DNA of 64,000 nucleotides from a virus (taxonomy: Duplodnaviria > Caudoviricetes): positions 32,001 to 96,000 of the IMG/VR virus record IMGVR_UViG_3300029305_003884. One strand, given 5' to 3'. The notes beneath the pieces were generated by a model. The model had not been told where the DNA came from, searched no databases, and saw only the letters and a program-made list of their open reading frames with translations. How positions within the stretch are numbered: position 1 is the stretch's first letter; every line of letters begins with the position of its first letter. Made by a program: the position numbers and the translations under genes. Of this stretch, positions 25,183-58,250 are shown piece after piece.

Positions 25183-26331
25183 TTACCTCTTGAGATAAGT
25201 AATATCGTTCGAATCGAAATGAGTCGGCATACCGATGCTTTTCAGATAATCAAGTACCTTGAATATCTTGGTAGGATAACTCAGAGCTTCCTTCATCGAA
25301 GCCCTTATATTAACCGCATCGTTGGCGGTAATTTCACCACGGTCCACCATTCGATATAACATCGGCACACTAAGCTCCTTATCATTCTGGAACGGGCTCG
25401 GAGTAGTGCCTATGCCTCCATTATAGCAAGCAAACACGAACGTCATATCTCCAAGATGGTCGTCATCCTTTTCATTGGCGTTAACCTTGTTGCTGCGTTC
25501 GGTATCATACATGAGATACAGAAGATAGCCAGCGGCAAGGTTTATCGCATCTTCGACAACCTCTGGATTCCTCATCTTGCTGGCACTCAGGCCAAACTCG
25601 CCTGCATGCAACCTCGCATCCCGTATCGCATCTGAACCAAGCTGGGCAAGACCACGATATCTAGTCGTCTGCGGTTTATCGTTGAACATACTCTCAATAC
25701 AGATGAGGGCAAGCAGTTCAGCCTCTCCGATTCCACGAGAAGATGTAATCTGGGCCGTATTATGAACAGCACGCAATATGCGTTCTATGTGGGCCGCCTG
25801 CTGTTCTGGTGTATGTTTCACCTTGTATGCCTCGGCTAGGTTAGTTGAAATAAACTTCCTTACTGCATTGTCACTTGGTTCAGAAGCAGATGACTCAGGG
25901 AAAGACACGGACATCGCATCCCTGACTAGACTTCTGTCGTTCGTATCCTTTTTCACTGTAGGAACGGTGTCAAACTTTGCTGGACTGTCCTTATACTCGA
26001 AAGTGGTGTCCTTTTCGTCGAAAGTCCTCTCGGGGAGCTCGGCATACTGTTCGAGCTGTTTGTCATCAAGACCCAACTTTTGAGCCATATCGTGCCAGTC
26101 AGTATTGTAAATACTGGCGCCTGGGCTGCCTCCAATCAGGGCGGCACCACCTACCTTGATGGCCTTGCTAATCTTAGGGTAATACGTTTCCAGGTTGGAC
26201 AACCTGTTATAGAGCCCTTTCCAGTCCACCCCTTCATAGATGGCTGAATGCAGGTCGAAAATCGCTTCCATCTGCACTTTCGGTAAGTCAAGTTGCCTTA
26301 TTGCCTGTCGGAACTGCTCTTCGTTGGTCAT
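25183..26331 (-). CDS. Lytic transglycosylase (SLT) with N-terminal leader
   Basis: CIESMF (catalytic Glu), GLAQL, ACYNGG; start ATG 26331, 24 nt after the late motif. Confidence 0.85.
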   Translation of the reverse strand: MTNEEQFRQAIRQLDLPKVQMEAIFDLHSAIYEGVDWKGLYNRLSNLETYYPKISKAIKVGGAALIGGSPGASIYNTDWHDMAQKLGLDDKQLEQYAELPERTFDEKDTTFEYKDSPAKFDTVPTVKKDTNDRSLVRDAMSVSFPESSASEPSDNAVRKFISTNLAEAYKVKHTPEQQAAHIERILRAVHNTAQITSSRGIGEAELLALICIESMFNDKPQTTRYRGLAQLGSDAIRDARLHAGEFGLSASKMRNPEVVEDAINLAAGYLLYLMYDTERSNKVNANEKDDDHLGDMTFVFACYNGGIGTTPSPFQNDKELSVPMLYRMVDRGEITANDAVNIRASMKEALSYPTKIFKVLDYLKSIGMPTHFDSNDITYLKR

Positions 26332-26355
26332 GAAAAATCCATTAGTATCCACCAA

Positions 26356-26364
26356 TAGTTTATA
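26356..26364 (-). promoter_or_regulatory. Late promoter motif TATAAACTA
   Basis: Exact motif. Confidence 0.8.
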
Positions 26365-26395
26365 AAGTCCAGCTTCACCGTCCACCCCCCAACAT

Positions 26396-26404
26396 TATAA
26401 ACTA
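26396..26404 (+). promoter_or_regulatory. Late promoter motif TATAAACTA
   Basis: Exact motif 22 nt before the gp15 ATG. Confidence 0.8.
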
Positions 26405-26426
26405 TTCGATGATTAGGTGATGCTGT

Positions 26427-28028
26427 ATGAGACCATTTTATTACGTTCGCACAATTGAGAAAATCCTTATTGGACTTATCGACATGTTCAATAACATGTA
26501 TGTCAACAAGTACGATGACATGAATCGTGTTGACTACTCAAGGAGCGCTAAAATACCCATCATCACCCACAACAATGCCAACTTTACGAACTTCTGGTCA
26601 TCGACCCAGTACAAGCAGCTGACGGTTCCGTACCCGATAGGTGCTATCAGGTTCGTAAGCAACGCCCCAGACGCAAGCAATAGGCCGCAACCGACCTATG
26701 CGAGAGAGATTTTCAGCAGGTCGGCAGACCGATGGATTCGTGACATACAACCGACTCCATATACATTCAACTTTGAATTGCAGTTCCAGGCGGACAACAT
26801 ATCCGACATCTTCCAGATAAAGGAGAACATCGAGCCGTACTTCAACGAGTACAGGACTATCGTAATCAAGGAATGGGACTTCGCCCCAGAAATTCCTAGG
26901 CCAGTCGTTGTGGTTATCAACAGCAATACAACCGAGTTGAATGAAGAGGTTAGCGACTCCGATGCACAACAGCAGGTATACAAGGTGACTTACCCGATTA
27001 CCTGCTACGGTGTATATCACAGGCCGTACGAAACACCAGAGATGATTAAGTACGCCGAGATGAACTTCCATATCGACGAAGACCTCATCCACAGGGAACA
27101 GCTCCTCGTCTACCCGAGCGAAATCATACAGCAGAAGAAAAAGCTCTGGGAAACGGTGTGCCCGACAATCAGGGAAGGCTACTCAATTCTGCACACCCTA
27201 TCGACTACTCTTATGCAGAAGCAGGATGCGGACGGCAGCAAGTATTACGAGGATGTCTCGCTAAAACAGTTGCTACTGTTCGACCGTTTCACGACAACGA
27301 CTTACCACGAAGGTTTGAAACTCTGCGGTGTGGACGCATACAACGACCCTGATACAGACTACAAGATTCTTCCAGAAGATTTTGATGCCAATGGTATTCC
27401 CATTTACACATACTGCGAATCGGTAACGGACGACATAACGAGACCTGCAGAAGTCCCGTCGTTCGACCTGCTCCGCTTCAACTTCGACTACGACACTCCT
27501 CACGAAAGCGACCTTAGCGGTTTCGGTCGTGACTTCGTCGCAGTCAACGACGATACGAGAAAGTTCATTCCGAACATCGCCCCTGGAAACGGCCAGGAGG
27601 TGGAAGGCGGCTACGCCGTGGAGGACTACGTCGATTGGAGCAAGATTCTCAACTGGTTCGGCGACAATGCCAATGGCGACATCGAGTCGTCATACACATT
27701 CAAGGCAACCATCCAGTTTGTCGAAGACGCCCCAGGCGATACAATCTTCCAGTACCTCAGCAATGACGAAACCACTCTGTCTGACGGAACGGTCATACCA
27801 GAGGGCGAAGTCTGGTTCGACTGGGGCATGATGAACGGTCGTCTATACTTCACTTACCATACGTCCAGCAAGTACAAGACATTCGTATCTGACGTTATCC
27901 ACCCGAACAAGGAAACCATCTATTCCTTCTATTTCGCCCTGTATGACAAGGGAGACAAGGGTATGTTCGGAGTCAAGACCAATTTTAGTGAAACAATGAT
28001 AGCCCTCAATACGGTTGAGGCTAATTAG
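26427..28028 (+). CDS. gp15: Tail sheath stabiliser/terminator, T4 gp15-like, with C-terminal extension
   Basis: YYxxTIEK...FNNMYV...KIPI...PTPYTFNFEL...DIFQIKENIEPYFN. Confidence 0.8.
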   Translation: MRPFYYVRTIEKILIGLIDMFNNMYVNKYDDMNRVDYSRSAKIPIITHNNANFTNFWSSTQYKQLTVPYPIGAIRFVSNAPDASNRPQPTYAREIFSRSADRWIRDIQPTPYTFNFELQFQADNISDIFQIKENIEPYFNEYRTIVIKEWDFAPEIPRPVVVVINSNTTELNEEVSDSDAQQQVYKVTYPITCYGVYHRPYETPEMIKYAEMNFHIDEDLIHREQLLVYPSEIIQQKKKLWETVCPTIREGYSILHTLSTTLMQKQDADGSKYYEDVSLKQLLLFDRFTTTTYHEGLKLCGVDAYNDPDTDYKILPEDFDANGIPIYTYCESVTDDITRPAEVPSFDLLRFNFDYDTPHESDLSGFGRDFVAVNDDTRKFIPNIAPGNGQEVEGGYAVEDYVDWSKILNWFGDNANGDIESSYTFKATIQFVEDAPGDTIFQYLSNDETTLSDGTVIPEGEVWFDWGMMNGRLYFTYHTSSKYKTFVSDVIHPNKETIYSFYFALYDKGDKGMFGVKTNFSETMIALNTVEAN

Positions 28029-28039
28029 GAGAACTTATC

Positions 28040-28414
28040 ATGAATCTCTTTGAATCGCAAATCAACAACCTGAACCTCGACCCGTCGATGAAGAAAAGCA
28101 TCATCGAATTGCGAAAGGTGTGCCTGGAAAGCGATGTCGGTGGAATGCCGAATCTCGACTTCGAAAAGCAACAAGCAGAAGCTGCAAAAAATCGGGCCGC
28201 TTTCAATGCCATCAAGGACACGATAAATTTGGCAATGAAAGAAGTTGGGGAAAATCTTCCGAGTAACGTAGAAGGAGAAGCCCTCGGTCAGGCCGTATTG
28301 AAGAGGATACAGGATAAGTACTGTCCGCAGTTTGACAAAACGTATGGTGAGGGGTGGGGTAAAAAGCTTGACATGGAAGCCAAGAAACGGCTCCATAAAT
28401 TAGCCCTACTGTAA
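28040..28414 (+). CDS. Leader-family putative internal head protein
   Basis: MNLFESQINNLNL...IIELRKVCLES; AGGAG RBS. Confidence 0.75.
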   Translation: MNLFESQINNLNLDPSMKKSIIELRKVCLESDVGGMPNLDFEKQQAEAAKNRAAFNAIKDTINLAMKEVGENLPSNVEGEALGQAVLKRIQDKYCPQFDKTYGEGWGKKLDMEAKKRLHKLALL

Positions 28415-28421
28415 AGAACGG

Positions 28422-28430
28422 TATAAACTA
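28422..28430 (+). promoter_or_regulatory. Late promoter motif TATAAACTA
   Basis: Exact motif 27 nt before ATG 28458. Confidence 0.8.
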
Positions 28431-28457
28431 GGTTTAGAATACAATTAGGGTATCTAT

Positions 28458-30086
28458 ATGCTGAAATCTCTTTTTGAAGCGTCAATCGACAGGCTTAATA
28501 TCCCCGTGGATATGAAGACTGCAATCAAGAAAATTAACAACGTCTGTCTTGAAGCGGAAGGCGACAATAAGCCAGACCCGAACGAGCAATGGAAATTCAA
28601 CGCATTCCCCGAAAATAAGGGTAACGCAGCTCCGAATGCCGCTCCGGCCAATAACGCACCGAAGAAAACTCAGGCAGATTTGAACAAGCAATGGAATTTT
28701 ATCGGATTGCCCGAACAACCGTCTAACCAGAAAGACTTTGTTCCAGAAGGAAAACAGGGATGTGTAGACCCAGCAAAACCGTTCAAGAACCTGACTGCGG
28801 AAGAAGCAAAGAACTTGTACACGGTCAACCAAGACAATTCGGCTCAGGCAGCTCCTGCACAGACGGCACAGGCTCAGCCAGCACAGGCTCAGCAACAGGC
28901 CCAGGCCAATGCAAAACCTGCCGCTCCTAAGTACAGGAGGGGTGCCGATGTAGCAACCGTGCAGTTCTTCATCAGGTCAAAACACCCTGAGACGGAACTT
29001 GTCGGAGACGGTATCCTCGGTCCCAAGACAATCCAGGCAATCCAGAAAGTCGAAGACCTGGAGGAAACTGGAAAGATGGACCAGGCGACTCAACAGGCGT
29101 TCAACGATATGCTTAAAGAAGCAAAGGTTAAGGTCAAGGAATTGCAGGAAAAACTTGGTGTGACGGCAGATGGTCTCATCGGTAAGCAGACTCTTGCCGC
29201 AATGAACAAGGCCAACATGAACGTAGCAAACCTGTTTAGCACGCAACCTTCCAATGAGGCTTATGCATCCAAGCAAACCACCCCAGCAACCACTGCGGAA
29301 AACCCAACCGACAAGAAGCTGACATCACACCCTTTTAACAAAGAAAGAGCTGATTCCTTGCTTCAACAAAAATCAATCACACAGCAAGCATACAATATCT
29401 GGAAAAACTTCGGCATAGCCCCTATCATGCAGAAAAAGATGCCGAACGAAACCAAGGCATTTATTGCAAGAGCCCAACAGGAAAAGAAAAACGAAGCCAA
29501 CGCCGCTACCACGACAAAGGGTGAAAAAACTCCTGGTAACCAGGCGTCGAACGGAAATGTTACTCCCCAAAACGACGAAGAAAAGAAGTTCTATGAGGGG
29601 ATGAAAAAGAACTATCTGAAGGTATACCAGGCCTCAGCAAAGCAGAAGGGCAAGAGCGAACTATGGGCCAGCAACATGGCCGATAATGCGGCTAAAGAAG
29701 CCCTTGCCAAGAAGAGGAATGGCACCTGGGGAAAGGCAGCCGAGCAGGGAAATCAGCAGGCCGCTACACCACAAAAAAAAAATAACCAGAACGACGAAGT
29801 CTATCACACGATGAAAGATTCAAAAGGAACAACTGAATACTACTCTGGGAACATTTCCTGGAACAATCTGAGTCCTGAAGAAAAGAAAATCAAAGAGGAC
29901 GCCGAAGCCAAGGAGCAAGCCAAATACTATGATGGAAAACAAGTTAAAAAGAACCCAAAGACAGGCAAACCATACGATGAACAAATAGTGTATAACAGGA
30001 TTCAATCAGCAGGCCAAAACGCTGTTATAAAGAACAGAATGGCGAAAGCTCGTGAAAGACAAGCAGCTGGTGGAAAACAAGGATAA
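28458..30086 (+). CDS. Leader-family protein with peptidoglycan-binding (PG_binding_1-like) domains
   Basis: SLFEASIDRLNI...VCLEAE leader; DVATVQ...DGILGPKT..AI and VKELQEKLGVTADGLIGKQT. Confidence 0.8.
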   Translation: MLKSLFEASIDRLNIPVDMKTAIKKINNVCLEAEGDNKPDPNEQWKFNAFPENKGNAAPNAAPANNAPKKTQADLNKQWNFIGLPEQPSNQKDFVPEGKQGCVDPAKPFKNLTAEEAKNLYTVNQDNSAQAAPAQTAQAQPAQAQQQAQANAKPAAPKYRRGADVATVQFFIRSKHPETELVGDGILGPKTIQAIQKVEDLEETGKMDQATQQAFNDMLKEAKVKVKELQEKLGVTADGLIGKQTLAAMNKANMNVANLFSTQPSNEAYASKQTTPATTAENPTDKKLTSHPFNKERADSLLQQKSITQQAYNIWKNFGIAPIMQKKMPNETKAFIARAQQEKKNEANAATTTKGEKTPGNQASNGNVTPQNDEEKKFYEGMKKNYLKVYQASAKQKGKSELWASNMADNAAKEALAKKRNGTWGKAAEQGNQQAATPQKKNNQNDEVYHTMKDSKGTTEYYSGNISWNNLSPEEKKIKEDAEAKEQAKYYDGKQVKKNPKTGKPYDEQIVYNRIQSAGQNAVIKNRMAKARERQAAGGKQG

Positions 30087-30109
30087 ATAACCGAACATAT
30101 CTTAGTATT

Positions 30110-30141
30110 CACCCACGGTTCCGACCGTGGGTGTTTCGTTT
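30110..30141 (+). terminator. Intrinsic terminator
   Basis: CACCCACGGT-TCCG-ACCGTGGGTG-TTTCGTTT. Confidence 0.8.
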
Positions 30142-30157
30142 AAGGTGTCATCTAGGC

Positions 30158-30166
30158 TATAAACTA
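30158..30166 (+). promoter_or_regulatory. Late promoter motif TATAAACTA
   Basis: Exact motif 31 nt before ATG 30198. Confidence 0.8.
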
Positions 30167-30197
30167 TAGTCAGATTCAGGATTAAGCTGACCTACAT

Positions 30198-30935
30198 ATG
30201 ACATTGTTCGAGTCTGAAATACGCAAGTTGAATATCCCTAGATGTATCATGGACAGCATCGTGTCCCTGCGGAATATCTGCATGGAAGCTGAACAGCCGC
30301 AGCCACAACAGGCAACCCAACCTGCTCAAAAGCAACCACAGCCACAGCAACAGCAGCCGAAACCGCAACAGAATGCGGCACCCCAGCAACAGCCAGCTCC
30401 TCAGGCACAGCCTCAACAGAATGCACCGCAGACCGCTCAGCAGCCAGCCGCTGGAAATCAGCAAGGCCAGACTCAGCCGCCAGCTCAGGAGAATGGTCAG
30501 CCACAGCAGACAGCCCAGCCTCAACAGGCAAACAACGCACAGGGCAAGCAGCAGATTCCAGAAAACATAGACGAGAACCAAGTTGACAGCAACAAGTTGC
30601 TGAAGCAGTTCAATAATTTTTTGGAGGGTTGCCGAAAGAGAGTTGAAGAGCGCTTGATAGCTGACTTCGGTGATAAAGGAAAGACTATCATAGAAACAGT
30701 AAAGGAGTACACGAAGACGGGTTCCCCGATAGACTTCGATATGGAGATACTTCCGTTGCTCACTAAAAACGGGGAAGCTCCGACGAAGAAAGTTATTAAC
30801 GAGGTGCGTGATAGGCTCCAAAAGTATTTCGGCTTGAAAATCAGCGAGCCCAAGCAAAAGCAGCAGCAAAAAAACGAAAATAAGCAAGAACAGCCCGCAA
30901 AGACGGACGAAAAGCAAGAAGCTCCTCAGAAATAA
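30198..30935 (+). CDS. Leader-family protein with Gln/Pro-rich linker
   Basis: MTLFESEIRKLNI...LRNICMEAE, then ~85 aa of Q/P/A low complexity. Confidence 0.75.
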   Translation: MTLFESEIRKLNIPRCIMDSIVSLRNICMEAEQPQPQQATQPAQKQPQPQQQQPKPQQNAAPQQQPAPQAQPQQNAPQTAQQPAAGNQQGQTQPPAQENGQPQQTAQPQQANNAQGKQQIPENIDENQVDSNKLLKQFNNFLEGCRKRVEERLIADFGDKGKTIIETVKEYTKTGSPIDFDMEILPLLTKNGEAPTKKVINEVRDRLQKYFGLKISEPKQKQQQKNENKQEQPAKTDEKQEAPQK

Positions 30936-30936
30936 A

Positions 30937-31443
30937 TCAGTGTGTCAATTGACTAACTAACGCATCTACGTCAACGCAAGATGCGTTATATTTATTTATG
31001 TACACGCTGTTGAACAATTTCATCGTAACAGCATTCAACAGAATCGCCAATGCTTTCTTTTCATCGTCGCTCAGTTTGTACGACGACATCAACATGCAAT
31101 GCTGGTCCCGTCCACCTTTGTTGTTGAAGAGGGTGATATCAATGGGTTCGTCATCGCTTAACCCTACCTTTTCATACATGTGTTTGGCAATGGCGTTGCC
31201 TTTCTCGACAGTAAGGCAGTTCACATCAAACTGGTCCATCAACATTTCGAGCAGACGGCTTCCGACCCCCTGCCCACGTTCCGTTTCCTTGACGGAGAAG
31301 TCGCATAGGAAGTTGACATCGCCCGACTTGACAATCATGGCCTTGGCTACGCCAGATGCTCCCTCTTGCGAATAAGCTGGGTAGGCGACGACTCGATAGA
31401 CGTTTTCCATAGGCTGTTTGATAGATAATTTTAGGTCAAGCAT
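30937..31443 (-). CDS. GNAT-family acetyltransferase
   Basis: VKETERGQGVGSRLL and N..A..MYEKVG. Confidence 0.85.
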   Translation of the reverse strand: MLDLKLSIKQPMENVYRVVAYPAYSQEGASGVAKAMIVKSGDVNFLCDFSVKETERGQGVGSRLLEMLMDQFDVNCLTVEKGNAIAKHMYEKVGLSDDEPIDITLFNNKGGRDQHCMLMSSYKLSDDEKKALAILLNAVTMKLFNSVYINKYNASCVDVDALVSQLTH

Positions 31444-31466
31444 GTCAGTTTCATTGTTTCAAAATA

Positions 31467-31475
31467 TAGTTTATA
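31467..31475 (-). promoter_or_regulatory. Late promoter motif TATAAACTA (overlaps a TATATT)
   Basis: Exact motif 23 nt before ATG 31443. Confidence 0.6.
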
Positions 31476-31497
31476 TCCAGACTTAAACGAATTCCCT

Positions 31498-31962
31498 ATG
31501 GTATCTAAATACATCTACTTTGCAGCGAACAACATGGTTGAGCACCCGTTGTACATGAAGAGTTTCATCCTCGGTGAAACAGAAGACATAAACGCACGCC
31601 AGCACCAGTACAATGTCATGCAGAAGGGAATCCAGCAGATACCAACAGGGACACTGACCTCAATCGACGGTCAGGACGGTCTCATCTTCCCGTTTGTAGA
31701 CTACTTCAAGCTTACGCTGAACACCGTGTCAAATGCAAAGAACCGTCATGACACGTTTATCCACGACATCATGCTCCATGAGCGCCCGTTCAAGGACTTG
31801 GTATACCACGTAAAGGATAAACTACTCATGAATACCAAAGAAGCATTTGCGTTCTATAACACGATAGATTTCATCAGGGACATCGAACGGATTAAGGACT
31901 ACCTGATAGAGAACCTGACCAGCTACGGTCACTACACGGTTATGGAATACAAGTTCACGTAG
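31498..31962 (+). CDS. Hypothetical protein
   Basis: 154-aa ORF with codon usage like its neighbours. Confidence 0.65.
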   Translation: MVSKYIYFAANNMVEHPLYMKSFILGETEDINARQHQYNVMQKGIQQIPTGTLTSIDGQDGLIFPFVDYFKLTLNTVSNAKNRHDTFIHDIMLHERPFKDLVYHVKDKLLMNTKEAFAFYNTIDFIRDIERIKDYLIENLTSYGHYTVMEYKFT

Positions 31963-31969
31963 GATTGTC

Positions 31970-32431
31970 ATGGAAGTAGAACTGTATACCCCAGCAGAAG
32001 TGAAGGAACTTCTGTCCAACATGGAAACCATCAAGCGGTTCCCTATGATTTGTTACGACAAAGTCGAAAGCAACATAGAAGGAAAGACCGCTGCCGAAAT
32101 CATGAACGAGGCAAAGACCATGAACTACGACGGGGAATGGATGGTATTTCGTAGCATGGGTGTGGTGATTGGACTTGCCTGTGCGACCGTGGAAGACAAG
32201 ACTACACGCAACCTGTACCTGTATGACTTCGAGGTTGCGACTGATGCACAAGGAAACGGATTCTCAAACACGATGCTGGACTACGTGTACAAGTACGCAC
32301 GACAGCACGATTGCCAGTACATAACCCTGATGGCATTCGATGACAACGCTTTTGAATACTGGAAGCATCAGGGATTCAGGGTATCCCCAAAATCAAATAA
32401 CAACATCAGACTATTGTTCAAGAAACTCTAA
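31970..32431 (+). CDS. GNAT-family acetyltransferase
   Basis: FEVATDAQGNGFSNTML...A..YWKHQGF. Confidence 0.85.
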   Translation: MEVELYTPAEVKELLSNMETIKRFPMICYDKVESNIEGKTAAEIMNEAKTMNYDGEWMVFRSMGVVIGLACATVEDKTTRNLYLYDFEVATDAQGNGFSNTMLDYVYKYARQHDCQYITLMAFDDNAFEYWKHQGFRVSPKSNNNIRLLFKKL

Positions 32432-32468
32432 AACGAAAGGGACTCCCAGCGTCGACACTGAGAGTCCC
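32431..32468 (-). terminator. Intrinsic terminator
   Basis: GGGACUCUCAGUG-UCGA-CGCUGGGAGUCCC-UUUCGUUUU. Confidence 0.85.
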
Positions 32469-32685: not shown

Positions 32686-32690
32686 CACAT

Positions 32691-32719
32691 ATTATAGAAA
32701 ATTTAAGTGGCTTCGTCAA
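32691..32719 (-). promoter_or_regulatory. Sigma70-type promoter TTGACG-N17-TATAAT
   Basis: Near-perfect consensus pointing into the intergenic region. Confidence 0.8.
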
Positions 32720-39841: not shown

Positions 39842-40537
39842 ATGAATCTATTTGAATCGGAAATCAGCAAGCTAAAACTCAGCCCGACGGCAAAAGAGAC
39901 CATCATTCAACTGCGAAAGATATGTCTTGAATCGGAGAACGACGAACAATTCGGAGAAGAAGAAGGTGCAAAGAACGATGTCAGCAACCGTCGTCATTTT
40001 GCCAATGAAAACAATCCTGACACCCGCCCGACTGATGAAGTAAATACTCTTCCAGATATATGGGGATTCGGTCCCCTGTCCGACATAGAAGGTGAAGAAA
40101 ACAAGGTAGACTACAAGAAGATTGACGAGGCCAAACAGCTATTTCTGCACCAAGGTGGACATTCTAAAATAGTGAGCCGCCTTCTGGAGTTTTTAGATGA
40201 AGAATGGCGTTCCAGCGGCGTCGAAGTCACCGGCGTGGACGAATATGACCCGAACGAAGATAATTTCCCGAGAGCCCACATCCACTGCGATGTAGGAGAC
40301 CACCATATCGAAATAGATGTTAGGATTAATTCCAACGAAGGCCTCCTTTCATACGTCATGTGGGATGAGGACAGACGTCGAAATCTGAATGTCCTCCTGT
40401 GTGAATATAGGGATGTCGACCCGAGTACATTGGAAGACCGTTACGAACTATCCAAGAAATACTCTCTTGATAACATCGACGAAATGCTCGAAGACATCTC
40501 GACGGACATTTCATCAATCTTTATCTGGGGTATATAA
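39842..40537 (+). CDS. Leader-family acidic protein
   Basis: MNLFESEISKLKL...IIQLRKICLESE. Confidence 0.75.
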   Translation: MNLFESEISKLKLSPTAKETIIQLRKICLESENDEQFGEEEGAKNDVSNRRHFANENNPDTRPTDEVNTLPDIWGFGPLSDIEGEENKVDYKKIDEAKQLFLHQGGHSKIVSRLLEFLDEEWRSSGVEVTGVDEYDPNEDNFPRAHIHCDVGDHHIEIDVRINSNEGLLSYVMWDEDRRRNLNVLLCEYRDVDPSTLEDRYELSKKYSLDNIDEMLEDISTDISSIFIWGI

Positions 40538-50558: not shown

Positions 50559-50567
50559 TAGTTTATA
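50559..50567 (-). promoter_or_regulatory. Late promoter motif TATAAACTA
   Basis: Exact motif 23 nt before ATG 50535. Confidence 0.8.
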
Positions 50568-50576
50568 ATCGGGGCA

Positions 50577-51470: not shown

Positions 51471-51471
51471 A

Positions 51472-51807
51472 TTAAATCAACTTCTTCAATGCGGATGTGA
51501 CCCTTTCGACGTAGGCGGCGTCTGCATTCTTGTTGGATTCCAGCTTTTCGATAAAGTCGGCGACACCTTCCTTGATGACCCTCGGAACATCTTCATCGCT
51601 GAACGACTTGACGAAATCGTCCTTAATCTTGGCCAGCTTGCCCATTTCGATTACGGCACCAGCCTTCTTGAGTTCTTCGGCGGTCGGGACGAACTTGTCA
51701 TTGAAATCGTCGATGACGAGACGGATTGGGATTGTGCAACGGATGAGGTTGATGTAACGTCCGATTGCAATTCTGTCGCTAATGGTCAAATCAATAGTCT
51801 TGCTCAT
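51472..51807 (-). CDS. Hypothetical protein
   Basis: 111-aa ORF with AGGGA RBS. Confidence 0.75.
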   Translation of the reverse strand: MSKTIDLTISDRIAIGRYINLIRCTIPIRLVIDDFNDKFVPTAEELKKAGAVIEMGKLAKIKDDFVKSFSDEDVPRVIKEGVADFIEKLESNKNADAAYVERVTSALKKLI

Positions 51808-51880
51808 GATAATCCCTGTAAAATATAGGTACTTACGTCTATAAAATACATTTTTCGAGCGACATTATGCACCCAGGGGG

Positions 51881-51889
51881 TATAAACTA
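51881..51889 (+). promoter_or_regulatory. Late promoter motif TATAAACTA
   Basis: Exact motif heading the portal operon. Confidence 0.8.
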
Positions 51890-51926
51890 TTGGTAAAACG
51901 CCAAAAATATAATTTACTGTGTGAAT

Positions 51927-52133
51927 ATGGGTGAACTTTATAGATACAACGGCCTCCCAGTCTTTCAAGTGGACTTGTGCGATTTCCGTACGATAGTCGA
52001 TGCGGAAGTAAACAAGCGGCGTCTTTTGTCTAAGAACATCCTGAACGAAGCATTGAAGGAATTCTACAAATCAGAACGAAAACCAACCTTTTACGTGATG
52101 TTCGAAGGCATCAGATTCAAGTATCCCAGGTAG
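51927..52133 (+). CDS. Small late protein upstream of portal
   Basis: 68-aa ORF between the late motif and gp20. Confidence 0.65.
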   Translation: MGELYRYNGLPVFQVDLCDFRTIVDAEVNKRRLLSKNILNEALKEFYKSERKPTFYVMFEGIRFKYPR

Positions 52134-52139
52134 GAAATT

Positions 52140-53855
52140 ATGCTCTTTTCATCGAAAAAGAAAAACCCCGAAAATGTAGCGTCGATGGTCATGACGCACG
52201 TAAGGAACTACGGGGAGAACAACCCGAAAGGCGAACTGTTCGACCGAGTGTTCAACGGCGAAGACCTCTCCCGCAACATATCCAGGTCTAGGAACGCCGT
52301 AGGACAGGGCGTCCAGCAGATGATGTACCCGAACGGGTTGTCACCTGACGGATTCTCCACCTACATGCCGGCCATAATGATTAACGATGGCCAGATTGAC
52401 CCGAGCAAGGTACAGGACACCATCGCTGAAAACCAGGTTCAGCTATACTGGCGAAACAATGTGGAACGCATGTTGAAGTACAACATCATCGCCACCCGCT
52501 CGGAAGTGAACGAGTCCCTGACCCAGATTTGCAACGAGGCAATCTACAAGGACGACAAGGGCGACATCTGCAGCTTGCAGGTGAACGAGTACTCTGGAAT
52601 TGCGGAAGTGACCAAGATGAGCTTGCAGACAATCTTCAAGAGGGACGTCCTCAGGAAGATTTGCAACTTCAAGAACACGGCATGGCAATACATGAAGAAG
52701 ATGCTGACCGAAGGCCGTATCTTCCTCGAAGTCGTATATGACGAGTCGACCAACGAAATAGTAGGCCTGAACCTCCTCCCTGGTGAGAACATGATTGTGG
52801 TTGTCCAGGACAACATGATTATCGGCTACCGCCAGATGTTGACTGGAACCTACGCCCATAGCAGCAAGAACTACATCGACTATTCCCCGAACCAGATTTT
52901 GTTCCTCTCACTCGACCTTTACGGCCCAGGTGGCGTGAACGACCCGAGGTCCATTCTCGAACCAGCAGTTAAGGCCCATAACCAATTGAACACGATTGAA
53001 GACAGCGTTGTTATGTACCGTGTGCTTTGGGGCTCCGAAAAGATGGTTCTGAAAGTGGACGTGGCTGGCCAGCCTAAACCACAGGCCGAAGCGACCATGA
53101 AGGAACAGGCCAAGCTGTTCAGCCGACAAATCGACTATAACGCCACCACGGGTGAAATTACCAACTGGGGTAAGGCGATAGGTCTGTCAGAACACTTCGT
53201 TATCCCTGTCAACGGCAGCTCCTCTGGTTCCAGCATCGAAAGGCTCCCAGGTGGCGACCAATTGGGAAACATCGACGACCTTAAATTCTTCAAGAGGAAC
53301 CTCGTTAACGCATTGATGGTTCCCCCTGGACGTATCACGGCATTGGCTGGAGATAACGTAAACTACTCTAACGGTAAGATTGGTGAAGTCACACAGGCGG
53401 AAGTTGCCTTCGCTCGACTCGTCGAACGCTACCAGACCCCGTTCGAGCAAGGCCTCGTCAGGCTGTTCATCATGGTTCTGAACACAAGGAAGGAGTTCAA
53501 CGAAGAGATTAAACTCGAAGAGAACTTCGATATCAAGTTCAAGCGAAGCAACGGCTTCCAGAGCTATATCGACGCCGACGTTTGGACTACCCGACTGTCC
53601 GTGTTCTCCCAGATGATGGAATACGCAGTGAAGGACGAAGCCCCGAACAACCCGCTTTCACAGGAATACTGCCTCCGTTACGGTCTAGGCATTTCCGATG
53701 CAGACCTAACCCAGAACCGCAAGTGGCGTGAACACGAACAGAAGGTTCTTCTCGGTGAAGAAACCGATGTCGACAGCGGTGGCGAGGGTGGCGGCCTGAA
53801 CGAGTTCGGTGGTGGCGGCGAAATGGCCCCCGCACCCGAGACAGGAGCCTTCTAG
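52140..53855 (+). CDS. gp20: Portal vertex protein, T4 gp20-like
   Basis: SILEPAVKAHNQL..IEDSVVMYR, VDV...PK.QAE, LPGGDQLGNIDDLKFF...L..ALMVP.GR, E..F..LV.R.Q..F. Confidence 0.93.
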   Translation: MLFSSKKKNPENVASMVMTHVRNYGENNPKGELFDRVFNGEDLSRNISRSRNAVGQGVQQMMYPNGLSPDGFSTYMPAIMINDGQIDPSKVQDTIAENQVQLYWRNNVERMLKYNIIATRSEVNESLTQICNEAIYKDDKGDICSLQVNEYSGIAEVTKMSLQTIFKRDVLRKICNFKNTAWQYMKKMLTEGRIFLEVVYDESTNEIVGLNLLPGENMIVVVQDNMIIGYRQMLTGTYAHSSKNYIDYSPNQILFLSLDLYGPGGVNDPRSILEPAVKAHNQLNTIEDSVVMYRVLWGSEKMVLKVDVAGQPKPQAEATMKEQAKLFSRQIDYNATTGEITNWGKAIGLSEHFVIPVNGSSSGSSIERLPGGDQLGNIDDLKFFKRNLVNALMVPPGRITALAGDNVNYSNGKIGEVTQAEVAFARLVERYQTPFEQGLVRLFIMVLNTRKEFNEEIKLEENFDIKFKRSNGFQSYIDADVWTTRLSVFSQMMEYAVKDEAPNNPLSQEYCLRYGLGISDADLTQNRKWREHEQKVLLGEETDVDSGGEGGGLNEFGGGGEMAPAPETGAF

Positions 53856-53886
53856 GAAAGCCAGCAGGATATGGCAGCTGCTCAAT

Positions 53887-53916
53887 AGCCCTCGTACCAA
53901 GTACGGGGGCTTTATT
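53887..53916 (+). terminator. Intrinsic terminator after portal
   Basis: AGCCCTCGTAC-CAA-GTACGGGGGCT-TTATT. Confidence 0.75.
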
Positions 53917-53932
53917 CATACCCCCATTCCTT

Positions 53933-53941
53933 TATAAACTA
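53933..53941 (+). promoter_or_regulatory. Late promoter motif TATAAACTA
   Basis: Exact motif 28 nt before ATG 53970. Confidence 0.8.
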
Positions 53942-53969
53942 TACATGTACGATTTTATTGGACTATAAA

Positions 53970-54572
53970 ATGGACAAGACCAAACTCTTTATGGAATCCA
54001 TCGGACAACTGTGATTGACAAGGGCTCAATTCGATGCCGTCAGGTCTCTGTATGAAGCAATCAATGATGACACAGGTGTAGACCCCTCTGTGTATGAACC
54101 ATTATTGGCTAAATACGGTATTGACAAGATGATTGACCTACTCAAGGAACATCAGTTCGAAGTACATGACATCAGCGTCTACAAAGAAAAAGACCACGGG
54201 TATGGACATTACACGCTATATCACGTATTCATCCAAGTAAAGGAACGTGGCGAAAAGAATTATACAGGAAGAGACATCGAACTTAGAATCACACTTTTCC
54301 CCACCTGCTATAATAACCCATTTGATGGAAGAATCTTCCTCGTAGATTGGGAGACATACTATGTATGCCAAGATGGAACTACATCAGAAAAGAGCTGCAA
54401 CTACAAGACTGGTGACGACATGTATATGGCCCTAGAAAACTTCTTTACGCAAGATGCGAAACGGGAACCAGCAGAAACAGAGCCCTGGACCGAGGAACAG
54501 AAACAAGCCGCACTGAGATACTGGGGTGACTTACAGCTAAGCAATGACATACGCAATATGTTCAATGATTAA
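53970..54572 (+). pseudogene. Leader-family gene with in-frame TGA at codon 15
   Basis: MDKTKLFMESIGQL*LTRAQFDAVRSLYEA...; TGA at 54012-54014 is in frame with the 54015-54572 ORF. Confidence 0.7.
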
Positions 54573-54582
54573 CCATTTTAAC

Positions 54583-54610
54583 AAAAAAGCCTCCATTTTA
54601 AGGCTTTTTT
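54583..54610. terminator. Intrinsic terminator
   Basis: AAAAAAGCCT-CCATTTTA-AGGCTTTTTT. Confidence 0.65.
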
Positions 54611-54658
54611 CATTTCAATGCAGATTTTGAGGTAAAAAAATTTTTGTGAAAATACCTC

Positions 54659-54667
54659 AATAAACTT
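54659..54667 (+). promoter_or_regulatory. Late promoter variant AATAAACTT for major capsid gene
   Basis: Closest match in the intergenic region, 42 nt before ATG 54710. Confidence 0.45.
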
Positions 54668-54709
54668 AAAGTAGAACTCAAACAGTGCCAGGTGGCACAG
54701 GATAACAAT

Positions 54710-56200
54710 ATGCAACAGTTCAGACCTAAGTCAGCTACGAGCAAGTGGGCTCCGATTTTGGAATCCAACCTTGGCCGTAAGCTCAAGTCCCGTGCTGAAG
54801 CTTCTGTGGTTTCCACTCTTCTCGAAACCCAGTGCAAGCTCAACAAGGGTTTCCTCCCCGAATCTGCTAACGTCTCTGCAGACGTGGCTCAGTACCAGCA
54901 GTACGCTTTGCCGCTGGTGCGTCGTCAGTTCCCTGACCTCCTCGCTATGCAGACCGTGGCAACCATTCCAACAACAACTCCTAACGGAATTTACTTCGCA
55001 CTTCGTTTCCTCTATGACGACGAAGCTCCGAAGACTGTTGGTTTCCGTAAGGGCCTGAAGAAAGAAATCGGTTACGACCTCGTTGCCGACCATACTGGTG
55101 TGAAGGGCACGTTCAACCCGTGGACAACGACCGCTGGTGAAATGCTTTCCAACTATGCCGAAGGTACGTTCGGTGGCCCGTCTTTCGATGGCGCTGCTAT
55201 GAACTCTCAGAACGGTGCTGGTCACGCTTACGTTACCAACCACTGGGCTGACAAGCCGGGCTATGGCGACTACTACGATGAAGCCGAAGGTCACTACAAC
55301 ATCAAGAAGGCCAGCATCAAGGTGGTGTCTGGTGCTATCCGTGTTGGTACCAAGGCTATCAAGAGCCATTACACCCTCGAACTCCAGCAGGATATGGCTG
55401 CTGCTCACGGCCAGGACGTTGAAGCCCTGTTGCTCGAAGGCTTGCAGTTTGAAATCCAGCAGGAAATCGACCGTGAAATCCTCGCTGCTATGGTGTCTGT
55501 CGCTCAGAACCCTGCATTCGGTGGTGAAGCTGCTATCACCGTTGACCTCTCTGGTCACGCAAACTTCCAGGATGGCCGTTGGGTCGCCGAAAAGATTGCT
55601 GGTGGTATCGTGAACACGATTATCGCCGTTGCCCGTAAGATTTCTCTTACGACCCGTATGGGCTCTGGTAACTTCGCAATCTGCTCTCCGAGCATCGTTG
55701 CTGCAATCTCTACCCTTAACTCTGGTATCTATATCCCGACTTACCTCGGTACGGATGCCGCTGTTCAGCCGGGTGGTGGCGTTTCCGACGCTGGTTCTCT
55801 CCTGAGCGGTCAGATTAAGCTCTACCAGGATATCTACTCTTGGCAGGACTACGCTCTCGTTGGTTACAAGGGACCTCGTCAGGGCGAATCTGGTATCATC
55901 TTCATGCCTTACATCCCGTACATCTTCTGCAAGACCGCTGGTCAGGAAGACGGTAGCCCACGTCTCATCGTGAAGAGCCGTTACGCCATTGTCAGCAACT
56001 TGCTCGGTTGCGGCCTGTTCTACCGTGTTGTTCGCTTCGTGAACAACGACCTCTTGGGTGTTTCCTTCACTGGCGACATTCCTTGGGAATCTAACGAAGG
56101 TCCTACTGTGGGCGTAACCCTCGACACCGTTGGTGTTGCAGTTGGTGGCCACACGCTCGACCGTCCGTTCGGTACGGCTGCTCAGGAAGAAGAGTGGTAA
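54710..56200 (+). CDS. gp23: Major capsid protein, T4 gp23-like
   Basis: KWAPILE, LVRR.FP.LLA, YTLELQQDM.A.HG.DVE, EI..EIDREI, GYKG....ESGI.FMPYIP, KSRYA; AGGA RBS before ATG 54710; strong codon bias. Confidence 0.96.
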   Translation: MQQFRPKSATSKWAPILESNLGRKLKSRAEASVVSTLLETQCKLNKGFLPESANVSADVAQYQQYALPLVRRQFPDLLAMQTVATIPTTTPNGIYFALRFLYDDEAPKTVGFRKGLKKEIGYDLVADHTGVKGTFNPWTTTAGEMLSNYAEGTFGGPSFDGAAMNSQNGAGHAYVTNHWADKPGYGDYYDEAEGHYNIKKASIKVVSGAIRVGTKAIKSHYTLELQQDMAAAHGQDVEALLLEGLQFEIQQEIDREILAAMVSVAQNPAFGGEAAITVDLSGHANFQDGRWVAEKIAGGIVNTIIAVARKISLTTRMGSGNFAICSPSIVAAISTLNSGIYIPTYLGTDAAVQPGGGVSDAGSLLSGQIKLYQDIYSWQDYALVGYKGPRQGESGIIFMPYIPYIFCKTAGQEDGSPRLIVKSRYAIVSNLLGCGLFYRVVRFVNNDLLGVSFTGDIPWESNEGPTVGVTLDTVGVAVGGHTLDRPFGTAAQEEEW

Positions 56201-56226
56201 TCACTCTGAACCCTGAAAAGGAACTG

Positions 56227-56259
56227 AAAGGGAGCTTGCCGCAAGGCAGGCTCCTTTTC
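56227..56259. terminator. Intrinsic terminator after gp23
   Basis: AAAGGGAGCTTGCC-GCAA-GGCAGGCTCCTTTT with a GNRA loop. Confidence 0.88.
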
Positions 56260-56271
56260 CTATAATGCAGA

Positions 56272-57534
56272 CTAAGTGTCTTTAGCGGCTTTGATTCTAC
56301 ATGTATCAACCAATCGTCTAGCTTGTTCAAGCATCCATTCACCATCCGAACGCCGATAACGTATATCGCTTGTACAAGCTCCAGATTCTGACGGTTTCAT
56401 TATGAATTCCACACGGCAATACTGAAATTTCATATCATCTACCGTTGGAATAAAAACGCAAACAATAGAGCCATCATTATTTTCATTGAAAAAGGTAAGA
56501 CTAATAATACTGTTATTATATACCATGGCGGCTGAACATCGTATACCACAATTACCTTTTTCAGCATTATTCATTAATGTCTGTATAATTTGTTTAGTTA
56601 TATTATCCATTTGTGGATAATTAACAGTTGATGTATCATTTTCGACTAAACCTTGAATATACTTTGATACATTTCCGCATAACGCTCCTTTATACTTAGC
56701 ATGTTCATACAATTTAGGTGACATGGACACTGTCAAAACCTTTCTACCATTATCAAATTCGGATATTATTTTAGAGTTTACATACGAAAAACTAGCCAGT
56801 TGAGAAAGCTTTCCAAATCGCATACCAGTACAGCATCGTGTAACGCTTGATGTACTATAACGCTTAACAAGGAAATGTCCATCTTCATTCTTGATATATA
56901 TGAATCCAAATTTACTTAAGTCGTCCGGCAAGCCAACCACCTCATTAGACATGCATTGCAAACTAAAAGAAAGTTCATCGAAAACAATCTCCGTACGACG
57001 GTCATTCATTAAGTACATGAACGTACAATCGAATGCATCACACAGACCAACATTATAACAATATTTCACACCATTCTCTATACGAGTGACCCGAGATTTC
57101 GCTAATGCATATACATCATTGCTATCTACAACTGTTGACGGATGGCATAACCTAAACTTTAAAGAAAATTCTTCTGTCCTATACCCAATGAATGCACTCC
57201 ATGATTTACCAACTGCATAAAAAAACGAAATAGCAAGTTCTTGTTTAGCTTCTGTATATGTATCACACGTGGCGGCATTTGTATATACATGCTCTGTATT
57301 TAGTTCATATATGCACCATGGGTCACACGACGGATATTCACAACCACCTATTCGTCCTACCAGAAATGAAGTTCTGAGAACAACGTCGGTTGTTTTCGCC
57401 CACAGAGTATCAACGGTTATTATTTCGTGTGGTTTAATATCTGGTGGCAAATTGATTCCTTCATATTGTAAACCATATGCGGACTTCCGCGACACAATTC
57501 TATATAAAAAACTATGCTCTGTATTGTTATTCAT
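56272..57534 (-). CDS. Hypothetical protein, AT-rich gene
   Basis: 420-aa ORF, AGGAG RBS, ATGACA-N17-TATATT upstream (57563-57591); visibly lower GC than its flanks. Confidence 0.7.
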   Translation of the reverse strand: MNNNTEHSFLYRIVSRKSAYGLQYEGINLPPDIKPHEIITVDTLWAKTTDVVLRTSFLVGRIGGCEYPSCDPWCIYELNTEHVYTNAATCDTYTEAKQELAISFFYAVGKSWSAFIGYRTEEFSLKFRLCHPSTVVDSNDVYALAKSRVTRIENGVKYCYNVGLCDAFDCTFMYLMNDRRTEIVFDELSFSLQCMSNEVVGLPDDLSKFGFIYIKNEDGHFLVKRYSTSSVTRCCTGMRFGKLSQLASFSYVNSKIISEFDNGRKVLTVSMSPKLYEHAKYKGALCGNVSKYIQGLVENDTSTVNYPQMDNITKQIIQTLMNNAEKGNCGIRCSAAMVYNNSIISLTFFNENNDGSIVCVFIPTVDDMKFQYCRVEFIMKPSESGACTSDIRYRRSDGEWMLEQARRLVDTCRIKAAKDT

Positions 57535-57631
57535 ATTTTTATCTCCTATAGATGTCTAATACAATATATATTATTTTATGCCAAGTGTCATACATTTTTT
57601 TAATTTTATAACGCTATGCTCATAGCCATAT

Positions 57632-57640
57632 TATAAACTA
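57632..57640 (+). promoter_or_regulatory. Late promoter motif TATAAACTA
   Basis: Exact motif 25 nt before ATG 57666. Confidence 0.8.
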
Positions 57641-57665
57641 TTAATATAAAATTTCGTAATATACA

Positions 57666-58250
57666 ATGACCTCAGAATACGCACTAGATGTATTTACCAA
57701 GTCCGCCGAACAGATACTTACCTCCAAGGTACAATTGGAAGCGGTAACAGATTTGGCAAAGACGTTACTTGAATTTGCCGACCCAAGAAACGATGTAAAC
57801 CATCCGTCCTGTTCGTCAGGTCTTCTCATCACGGATGGAAAGGTATTCCTAGCAGAACTCCCGACAGGCAACAAGAAAGGCAAGCCGCATCAGTATGACC
57901 TTCCAAAGGGTCACGTTGAAAACGATGGCGAATCCGTAAAGGATGCCGCTTTCAGGGAAGCCTTGGAGGAAACTGGGTATAACTGGCATAAGTATTACAA
58001 CGATGCCAAGGGAATCTTCCGCAAGCAAGTGCCATTCCGTAAAGGAAACAACCTGATGTTATACAGGATAAATCTGAAAGAACTTCCTCCCCTGACATCC
58101 TATTCCTGCAAGTCCTACTTCCATGACCCTAAGAAGAACGCCGCCATACCCGAAGCATGCTCCTACGAGTACCTCCCGTTGAAGGAAATCGGAAAGTGGC
58201 TGTGGCCCGAGTTCGACAAGACCTTCAAGAGGGAAGGAATCAAGTTCTAA
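57666..58250 (+). CDS. Nudix hydrolase (T4 NudE-like) with N-terminal leader
   Basis: SGLLITDG...DLPKGHVE......AAFREALEETG Nudix box; ~45-aa extension. Confidence 0.88.
   Translation: MTSEYALDVFTKSAEQILTSKVQLEAVTDLAKTLLEFADPRNDVNHPSCSSGLLITDGKVFLAELPTGNKKGKPHQYDLPKGHVENDGESVKDAAFREALEETGYNWHKYYNDAKGIFRKQVPFRKGNNLMLYRINLKELPPLTSYSCKSYFHDPKKNAAIPEACSYEYLPLKEIGKWLWPEFDKTFKREGIKF

What the first reader, a model, noticed from the sequence alone, without database searches (positions are those of the whole stretch)
25183..58250. Shared N-terminal leader on unrelated late proteins: candidate modular capsid-loading system
Seen: seven dispersed genes begin with an alignable ~30-35 aa segment. 28040 MNLFESQINNLNLDPSMKKSIIELRKVCLES; 28458 MLKSLFEASIDRLNIPVDMKTAIKKINNVCLEAE; 30198 MTLFESEIRKLNIPRCIMDSIVSLRNICMEAE; 39842 MNLFESEISKLKLSPTAKETIIQLRKICLESE; 53970 MDKTKLFMESIGQL*LTRAQFDAVRSLYEA; 26331(-) MTNEEQFRQAIRQLDLPKVQMEAIFDLHSAIYEG; 57666 MTSEYALDVFTKSAEQILTSKVQLEAVTDLAKTLLEF (weakest). 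Approximate pattern F-x3-I-x2-L-x-L-x6-(A/S)I-x2-L-x3-(C/I/L)(L/M/Y)E. After it the proteins are unrelated: SLT, peptidoglycan-binding domains, Nudix, Q/P-rich, acidic. Six have their own late motif 24-31 nt upstream; 28040 follows gp15. Known: T4 internal proteins carry a ~10-aa capsid-targeting sequence removed by gp21 after Glu at (L/I)-x-E, and gp23 here has ILE/LPE sites. Inference: 'late promoter + leader' is a portable cassette that loads diverse cargo into the head for ejection into the host, with a longer helical signal than T4's.
Basis: partly seen in the sequence, partly recalled or inferred. Interest (0 to 1): 0.9.

Follow-up and report, generated by a model that had tools for sequence, protein, structure and literature searches.

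The report
Long capsid-loading leader on phage proteins
A group of ~420-kb rumen T4-like phages puts the same 29-36-residue two-helix leader, ending in the likely cut site of the head-maturation protease, on about two dozen unrelated late proteins. It is most likely a longer form of the tag T4 uses to load proteins into its head, though neither packaging nor cutting has been shown.

Summary
All seven window genes carry the leader. The 178-kb contig has 14 such genes, and complete ~420-kb relatives have 23-24. In a library of 1.84 billion proteins, 64 genuine clusters carry it, nearly always at residue 1-5.

Profile scores separate members cleanly from noise, and a search that used no profile recovers the family. 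The cargos are mutually unrelated. Within orthologue groups the leader is far better conserved than the cargo.

The leader ends in hydrophobic-hydrophobic-Glu followed by a small residue in 63 of 64 clusters. The major capsid protein's own propeptide has three conserved sites of the same kind. The phage encodes a gp21-type protease with a leader gene directly upstream, and another leader gene lies between portal and capsid genes. One leader protein weakly resembles T4 core protein gp67.

Leaders and cargos have been reshuffled between close relatives. The "promoter plus leader cassette" idea is not supported, because DNA similarity covers only the leader codons. The in-frame stop in gene 53970 is a single G-to-T change; relatives have Gly there.

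Best reading (0.65): an extended T4-style capsid-targeting propeptide. This scan has noted shorter tags of this kind in other T4-like phages. No experimental data exist.

The parts
25183..26331 (-). Leader + SLT lytic transglycosylase (382 aa). Leader = w26233-26331 (33 aa, ends IYE|G). True start is ATG 26331, not the upstream GTG.
   Evidence: Pfam SLT E=3.7e-6; leave-one-out E=6.5e-6; the promoter box lies between GTG 26385 and ATG 26331
26356..26364 (-). TATAAACTA late-type promoter box of the SLT gene, back to back with the gp15 box at w26396
26427..28028 (+). gp15-like tail sheath stabiliser. Context gene with no leader; w28040 follows it without a promoter of its own.
   Evidence: Pfam T4-gp15_tss E=3.5e-17
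28040..28414 (+). Leader (w28040-28129, 30 aa, ends CLE|S) + 94-aa helical cargo
   Evidence: In 8 homologues the leader is nearly invariant and divergence starts right after CLE. AF2 pLDDT 81: helix-turn-helix, disordered 31-40, then three helices
28458..30086 (+). Leader (w28458-28553, 32 aa, ends CLE|A) + 510-aa cargo with peptidoglycan-binding modules. Promoter box at w28422-28430.
   Evidence: Pfam PG_binding_3/1; its cargo falls in the largest cargo similarity group, 22 members
30198..30935 (+). Leader (w30198-30287, 30 aa, ends CME|A) + Gln/Pro-rich cargo. Promoter box at w30158-30166.
39842..40537 (+). Leader (w39842-39931, 30 aa, ends CLE|S) + acidic 201-aa cargo. Promoter box TATAAACCA at w39809-39817 lies downstream of the alternative ATG 39797, so 39842 is the start.
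   Evidence: The cargo is homologous (E=8e-16) to that of the portal-capsid slot gene of relative G001, which carries another leader subtype
52140..53855 (+). Portal protein (gp20-like), context
   Evidence: phrog_213 E=2.8e-66
53970..54572 (+). Leader gene between portal and capsid genes. Leader = w53970-54056, interrupted by TGA at w54012-54014 (GGA in relatives). Promoter box at w53933-53941; hairpin plus T-run after the gene.
54710..56200 (+). Major capsid protein (gp23-like). The propeptide has three clade-conserved hydrophobic-x-Glu sites (ILE|S, LLE|T, LPE|S) before the mature domain.
   Evidence: Pfam Gp23 E=2.1e-65; alignment of 15 relatives
57666..58250 (+). Leader (w57666-57773, 36 aa, ends LLE|F; weakest member) + Nudix hydrolase. 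Promoter box at w57632-57640.
   Evidence: Pfam NUDIX E=1.1e-9; leave-one-out E=1.8; canonical leader in orthologues L019/L020; in the de novo cluster

Best explanation
The 29-36-residue N-terminal segment is an extended capsid-targeting propeptide of a T4-like jumbo phage. Late in infection about two dozen unrelated proteins are made with this two-helix leader. The leader docks them onto the scaffolding core (gp22-like and gp67-like proteins, gp21 protease) while the prohead assembles. The gp21-type protease then cuts after the conserved hydrophobic-hydrophobic-Glu at the leader's end. It possibly also cuts at a second site of the same kind near residue 5-9. This frees the mature cargo inside the head, from which it would leave with the DNA at the next infection. 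Cargos include cell-wall enzymes, a Nudix hydrolase, acidic and Gln/Pro-rich proteins and a 1377-aa protein.

Shown here: the family, its strictly N-terminal position, its end motif, its conservation, its modular reshuffling and its gene context. Inferred: docking, cutting, packaging and ejection.
For: 1. Strictly N-terminal and specific. There are 14 of 14 hits at the N-terminus in the contig, 23 of 23 in complete relative G001, and a start at residue 1-5 in most of the 64 genuine clusters.

2. End motif. [C/L/I/V][L/F/M/Y]E followed by A/S/G/N is present in 63 of 64 clusters. The capsid protein, a universal gp21 substrate in T4-like phages (PMC9958956), has three conserved sites of the same kind in its propeptide.

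3. Protease and context. Peptidase_S77 (gp21) is present (E=8e-15). A leader gene lies directly upstream of it, in the slot T4 gives to core genes 67/68, and a scaffold-like gene lies downstream. Another leader gene lies between portal and capsid genes.

4. Structure. AF2 puts the cut site at the end of helix 2, just before a disordered linker.

5. Constraint. The leader is the most constrained part of these proteins: 58-88% identity against 29-58% for the cargo. In the w28040 family conservation stops exactly at CLE.

6. Late-type promoters. 10 of 14 leader genes have one, against about 30 of 140 other genes (p=2e-4).

7. Similarity to a T4 core protein. One leader protein (contig 15976-16683) resembles T4 gp67. 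Pfam GP67 scores E=1.6e-4. There is a gapless 29-residue match ending at both Glu sites, and an acidic tail follows in both. Shuffle p=0.0005, or 0.004 after correction for 71 leaders. hhalign gives P=0.02.

8. Accessory, reshuffled cargo, as at the T-even internal-protein loci. At the same locus the leader is kept and the cargo replaced. A homologous cargo occurs under two different leader subtypes. 12 of 14 cargos have no homologue in relative G003.
Against:
- A hydrophobic-x-Glu motif is short and common.
- The leader shows no detectable similarity to the T4 IPI/II/III targeting sequences and is about three times longer.
- The gp67 match is below Pfam's cut-off, and BLASTP gives only E=0.7.
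- Many cargos are strongly acidic, unlike T4's basic internal proteins.
- Cell-wall enzymes are more often tail-borne in myoviruses, and three leader genes lie next to a tail gene.
- Relatives whose capsid protein is ~68% identical show no comparable leader set.
Confidence: 0.65

Rival explanations
1. The leader is a core-building module rather than a delivery tag. The proteins co-assemble through the helical hairpin into the scaffolding core or an inner body. They are then mostly degraded or stay as structural filler, as T4 gp67/gp68 do, and are not ejected as active effectors.
For: Similarity of one member to T4 gp67, which is degraded to peptides (PMC9958956). Many cargos are acidic or low-complexity. 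Two members sit inside head-gene modules.
Against: Several cargos are folded enzymes (SLT, Amidase_2, Nudix), which makes little sense as filler. The cargo set is accessory and turns over quickly, unlike essential core parts.
Confidence: 0.15
2. The leader is an uncleaved anchoring domain that fixes accessory proteins to another virion part (tail, baseplate, neck or capsid surface).
For: Three leader genes and the SLT gene flank the tail gene gp15. Peptidoglycan-degrading and -binding cargos are typical of tail tips. Shared N-terminal adaptor domains are known for tailspikes (own knowledge).
Against: The near-invariant Glu with a small next residue, followed by a disordered linker, has no role in an anchor. 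Nudix and the acidic proteins are unlikely tail parts. Leader genes are scattered over the genome, including both head modules.
Confidence: 0.07
3. The leader is a recognition sequence for a modifying enzyme or chaperone (a RiPP-like leader), not a sorting signal. An earlier follow-up in this scan argued this for a 17-residue tag of phage RB43 that is linked to a radical-SAM enzyme.
For: Cys is the commonest residue at the third position before the cut.
Against: The Cys is replaced by L/I/V in many members. No enzyme gene is linked to the dispersed leader genes.
Confidence: 0.05
4. The shared N-terminus is only a remnant of gene duplication and 5' recombination, with no common function.
For: Recombination of leaders and cargos is evident.
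Against: The leader is the best conserved part of every orthologue group. It keeps a position-specific end motif in 63 of 64 clusters. It has persisted on 27 unrelated cargo groups.
Confidence: 0.03

Closest known systems
Phage T4 capsid-targeting sequence (CTS) of internal proteins IPI, IPII, IPIII and Alt (Mullaney & Black 1996, as reviewed in PMC9026906, PMC3012670)
   Same: An N-terminal tag shared by otherwise unrelated, fast-evolving late proteins. It ends in a hydrophobic-x-Glu site of the gp21 protease. The phage has gp21, a scaffold, a portal and gp23. The cargo set varies between close relatives.
   Different: The leader here is 29-36 residues with a helix-turn-helix, against 10-19 in T4. 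It has no detectable sequence similarity to the T4 IP tags. It sits on about 23-24 proteins per genome, against about 4-6 in T4. Cargos include cell-wall enzymes and many acidic proteins rather than small basic ones. Packaging and cleavage are untested.
T4 prohead core protein gp67 (Pfam PF17634)
   Same: One leader protein (contig 15976-16683) has the same layout: a helical N-terminal stretch, hydrophobic-hydrophobic-Glu then Gly/Ala, then a long polyacidic tail. A gapless 29-residue alignment ends at the Glu in both proteins.
   Different: The score is below Pfam's cut-off (19.8 against 27 bits). BLASTP is not significant. The protein is 235 aa against 80 aa. T4 gp67's segment is not known to occur on other proteins.
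Long N-terminal propeptides of head/ejection proteins in phiKZ, 201phi2-1 and SPN3US (PMC5694885, PMC10052503)
   Same: A jumbo phage in which many internal head proteins are processed after Glu by a gp21-related protease. Those propeptides are thought to act as targeting signals.
   Different: Those propeptides are 79-130 residues long. They are conserved only between paralogues (the SPN3US gp53/gp54 N-termini), and their motif is A/S/G-x-Glu. Here a single conserved leader is spread over unrelated proteins in a true T4-like lineage.

Membership tests
T4-type capsid-targeting sequence system | Tag lies at the extreme N-terminus of the protein | tested here: met
   14/14 in the contig, 23/23 in G001, most of the 64 global clusters
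T4-type capsid-targeting sequence system | Tag is shared by proteins that are otherwise unrelated | tested here: met
   The 14 cargos of the contig fall into 14 separate BLASTP groups; there are 27 groups overall
T4-type capsid-targeting sequence system | Tag ends in the recognition motif of the prohead protease (hydrophobic-x-Glu, cut after Glu) | tested here: met
   63/64 clusters; the same motif type is conserved three times in the capsid protein propeptide. Only the motif was tested, not the cut.
T4-type capsid-targeting sequence system | Genome encodes a gp21-type protease (Peptidase_S77) and a scaffolding core | tested here: met
   PF03420 E=8.2e-15 at contig 148777-149310; a scaffold-like 316-aa coiled protein lies downstream
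T4-type capsid-targeting sequence system | Tag length of 10-19 residues | tested here: not met
   29-36 residues
T4-type capsid-targeting sequence system | Sequence similarity to the T4 IPI/IPII/IPIII tags | tested here: not met
   Leader profile against T4 ipI, ipII and ipIII: no N-terminal match, E>=25. Whole T4 genome: no match.
T4-type capsid-targeting sequence system | Tag is sufficient for packaging into the head and is removed there | not testable with these tools
T4 gp67 prohead core protein (PF17634), for the leader protein at contig 15976-16683 | Match to the family profile above the curated cut-off | tested here: inconclusive
   19.8 bits against a 27-bit cut-off, E=1.6e-4; the G001 orthologue gives 8.4e-4. 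The leader-only shuffle test gives p=0.004 after correction. hhalign P=0.02; BLASTP E=0.7.

The most novel reading that the evidence does not exclude
The leader descends from the core-binding N-terminal segment of a gp67-like prohead core protein. In this rumen jumbo-phage clade it has been copied onto some two dozen exchangeable cargos, including a lytic transglycosylase, an amidase and a peptidoglycan-binding protein. On this reading the head, not only the tail, delivers cell-wall-opening enzymes and other effectors. If true, it would give an evolutionary origin for capsid-targeting tags and a sequence rule that predicts the injected proteome of uncultured phages.
Probability: 0.3. Interest if true: 0.75.

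Novelty: new variant of a known kind. Interest (0 to 1): 0.6.

Why it matters
If the leader is a loading tag, a simple profile names the whole set of virion-packaged, probably injected proteins of an uncultured clade of ~420-kb rumen phages. These make up roughly 6-9% of the called genes. That set is where anti-defence and host-takeover functions are usually found.

A 30-residue helix-turn-helix version with a possible link to core protein gp67 would say how such tags bind the scaffold and where they came from.

The observed exchange of leaders and cargos between near-identical phages shows the system is used as a plug-in slot in nature. That is also what makes T4's tag useful for packaging foreign proteins.

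Tried and rejected
- A profile from only the four tight leaders finds only those four. It was too narrow and was replaced by an 11-sequence profile.
- blastp-short clustering of N-termini recovers only the tight subgroup. Smith-Waterman scoring with a shuffled null worked.
- PHROGs, Pfam and sequence searches of solved structures give nothing for most cargos. The ESM Atlas gives nothing for the w39842 cargo.
- Foldseek of the w28040 model against viral structures has no match at E<=0.001.
- AF2 of the SLT protein was unusable (pLDDT 36).
- The leader profile finds nothing in T4.
- phrog_1064 (gp67) finds nothing in the contig.
- A search for an alternative shared leader in relative G003 found none, by profile or de novo.
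- No phage in the GenBank collection is close at DNA level, and only one distant gp15 hit exists.
- Literature searches found no description of this leader.
Full report
**What the DNA is.** The window is bases 32001-96000 of a 178-kb linear virus contig that CheckV rates 42% complete. It encodes T4-type gp15, portal, gp23 and gp21. No phage in the GenBank collection is close. IMG/VR holds many relatives. Two are complete genomes of 419 and 422 kb with terminal repeats whose capsid protein is 96% identical (G001, G002). Others have capsid proteins 57-70% identical. Earlier notes of this scan call it a ~420-kb rumen T4-like phage, which fits.

**Checking the observation.**
- A profile from only the four most similar leaders finds only those four.
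I read these from the sequence and aligned them.
- Leave-one-out tests against all 2955 six-frame ORFs of the contig give E=6.5e-6 for the SLT leader, 1.8e-5 and 3e-4 for two others, and 5e-9 to 4e-6 for the tight four. The Nudix leader gets only 1.8.
- Iteration converges on 14 ORFs, every one matched at its N-terminus just after an ATG.
- With a broader profile, 13 members score E<=3e-8. The fourteenth (w53970) is split by a stop into halves scoring 0.003 and 0.5, and the best non-member scores 0.27.
- Without any profile, an all-against-all local alignment of the first 45 residues of the 154 called genes gives one large cluster of 11 leader genes, including SLT and Nudix. There are 22 real pairs above a threshold that 2 shuffled pairs pass.
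- The Nudix leader is also more canonical in orthologues with 88% capsid identity (L019/L020).

All seven are therefore members, and seven more lie outside the window.

**The stop in gene 53970.** It is TGA at w54012-54014. Four near-identical relatives read GGA (Gly) there, which is the consensus residue of the leader's turn. It is a single G-to-T change. It could be a real nonsense variant or an assembly error.

**Extent of the family.**
- Complete relative G001 has 23 leader ORFs and G002 has 24, all N-terminal.
- Relatives G003-G005 (capsid protein ~68% identical) have none by profile. G003, read in full, also has none by de novo clustering.
- Other relatives (L035, L037, 66-70% capsid identity) carry a variant with a loop three residues longer. 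They even have two copies in one ORF.
- A profile search of 1.84 billion representative proteins gives 68 hits at E<=0.001. Four are repeat proteins. The other 64 have lengths from 59 to 1377 aa, and most carry the match from residue 1-5.
- None of the ten clusters looked up carries a functional name (only 'hypothetical protein'); nearly all their members come from metagenome collections.

**Anatomy of the leader.** The approximate consensus is F-x-E-S-h-x2-L-G-L-x3-Q-x-E-A-h-x2-L-x3-C-[L/F/M]-E, followed by A/S/G.
- The end motif [C/L/I/V][L/F/M/Y]E plus a small residue is present in 63 of 64 clusters.
- A second site of the same kind lies within the first 14 residues in 59 of 70 leaders.
- AlphaFold2 on the w28040 family (pLDDT 81) gives helix 3-9, a turn, helix 15-30, a disordered stretch at 31-40, and then a three-helix cargo.
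- In that family's alignment the first 30 residues are nearly invariant, and divergence with gaps begins right after the Glu.
- Within six orthologue groups, leader identity is 58-88% against 29-58% for the cargo.

**Cargos.** The 14 cargos of the contig are mutually unrelated by BLASTP. Those that can be named are:
- an SLT lytic transglycosylase, a protein with peptidoglycan-binding modules, and a Nudix hydrolase;
- an Amidase_2 enzyme.

The rest are acidic, Gln/Pro-rich or unknown, and one is 1377 aa.

**Evidence for a head role.**
- The capsid protein propeptide has three clade-conserved sites, ILE|S, LLE|T and LPE|S, ahead of the mature domain. They are the same type as the leader's end.
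- T4 gp21 and its jumbo-phage relatives all cut after Glu. In T4's tag, residues 8 and 10 govern processing (PMC5694885, PMC9026906).
- The gp21 gene is at contig 148777-149310. A leader gene (243 aa, with a SWIM-like Cys/His motif) lies directly upstream of it, in the slot where T4 has core genes 67 and 68. A scaffold-like gene lies downstream.
- In the window, a leader gene sits between the portal and capsid genes.
- The TATAAAC[TC]A box occurs 37 times against about 2 expected. It usually starts 31-40 nt before an ATG and precedes the gp15, portal-operon, gp21-operon and large structural genes.
- Ten of 14 leader genes have their own box and the other four follow a same-strand gene. About 30 of 140 other genes have one (p=2e-4).

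**A link to T4 gp67.** The leader protein at contig 15976-16683 (leader plus a polyacidic tail) is hit by Pfam GP67. The score is E=1.6e-4, 19.8 bits, below the 27-bit cut-off. Its G001 orthologue is hit at 8.4e-4.
- Without the acidic tail, T4 gp67 residues 18-46 align without gaps to residues 5-33 of this protein. Both stretches end at hydrophobic-hydrophobic-Glu followed by Gly/Ala.
- The shuffle p-value is 0.0005, or 0.004 for the best of 71 leaders. hhalign of the leader alignment against gp67 gives P=0.02 over the same columns. BLASTP gives only E=0.7.
- I rate homology at about even odds.
- gp67 is an essential T4 core protein present in ~340 copies and is degraded by gp21 (PMC9958956).
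- The T4 IP tags themselves show no similarity to the leader.

**Modularity.**
- In phages with 96% identical capsid proteins, the gene between portal and capsid keeps its leader (52% identity over 31 residues, E=4e-8) but carries an unrelated cargo.
- The cargo of w39842 is homologous (E=8e-16) to the cargo of that slot gene in G001, yet the two carry different leader subtypes. The G002 orthologue of w39842 keeps both parts.
- Across the three close genomes there are 27 cargo groups, and several are unique to one genome.
- Twelve of 14 cargos have no homologue in G003. The Nudix homologue there lacks a leader, and the SWIM-like protein there has a degenerate one.
- At DNA level, similarity between leader genes covers only the 90 leader bases (up to 74% identity). 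The 45 bases upstream are 24-38% identical and the 30 bases downstream 17-43%, near chance. So the unit that moves is the leader, not promoter plus leader.

**Verdict.** The best reading, at 0.65, is a long, helical, T4-style capsid-targeting propeptide cut by the gp21-type protease. The concept is known from T4 (PMC3012670, PMC9026906). This scan has reported short tags of the same kind in other T4-like phages, and in one case (RB43) a shared tag was argued to serve a radical-SAM enzyme instead; I keep that as a minor rival. What is new here:
- the length and fold of the tag;
- its scale, about two dozen genes per genome;
- the cell-wall-enzyme cargos;
- the documented exchange of leaders and cargos;
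- the possible descent from gp67.

Nothing about packaging, cutting or ejection has been shown.

Noticed in passing
window 54012-54014: The in-frame TGA inside the leader of gene 53970 is a single G-to-T change from GGA (Gly), which four near-identical relatives have. A TTG codon follows immediately. It could be a nonsense variant, a pseudogene or an assembly error.
   Followed up: partly
L035:5944-7290, L037:8372-9820 (also P0055): In relatives with 66-70% capsid identity, the ORF just upstream of the capsid gene carries two leader copies. One is N-terminal and one lies at about residue 290-345, as if two leader-cargo units were fused or form a polyprotein.
   Followed up: no
window 4495/4520, 15028/15054, 26364/26396; contig 27354/27406, 117399/117428, 133372/133401, 169343/169365: TATAAAC[TC]A boxes occur as back-to-back pairs on opposite strands, 22-52 nt apart. 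These look like divergent late promoter pairs.
   Followed up: no
contig 147737-148468 (L003:737-1468): The leader protein directly upstream of the gp21 protease has a CxC...CxH SWIM-like zinc-finger motif. Its homologue in the leaderless relative G003 (43% identity) has a degenerate leader without the terminal Glu motif and is not next to gp21.
   Followed up: partly
window 52140-56200 versus contig 147737-150464: The T4 head module is split. Portal, a leader gene and the capsid gene lie in the window; the protease and scaffold lie about 60 kb away. In relative G003 the order is contiguous: portal, capsid, a 166-aa gene, gp21, scaffold.
   Followed up: no
window 54588-54612: A G+C-rich hairpin followed by a T-run lies right after gene 53970, so that gene looks like a solo transcription unit. 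A near-consensus box (AATAAACTTA) lies about 40 nt before the capsid gene's ATG.
   Followed up: no
P0033, P0042, P0061: In a few metagenomic proteins the leader is preceded by a 25-75-residue extension. This may come from a fused upstream small ORF or a wrong start call.
   Followed up: no
L121 (T4 65416-67490): In T4 the Nudix gene nudE lies beside e, ipIII and ipII. Here a Nudix enzyme itself carries the leader. This may be coincidence.
   Followed up: no
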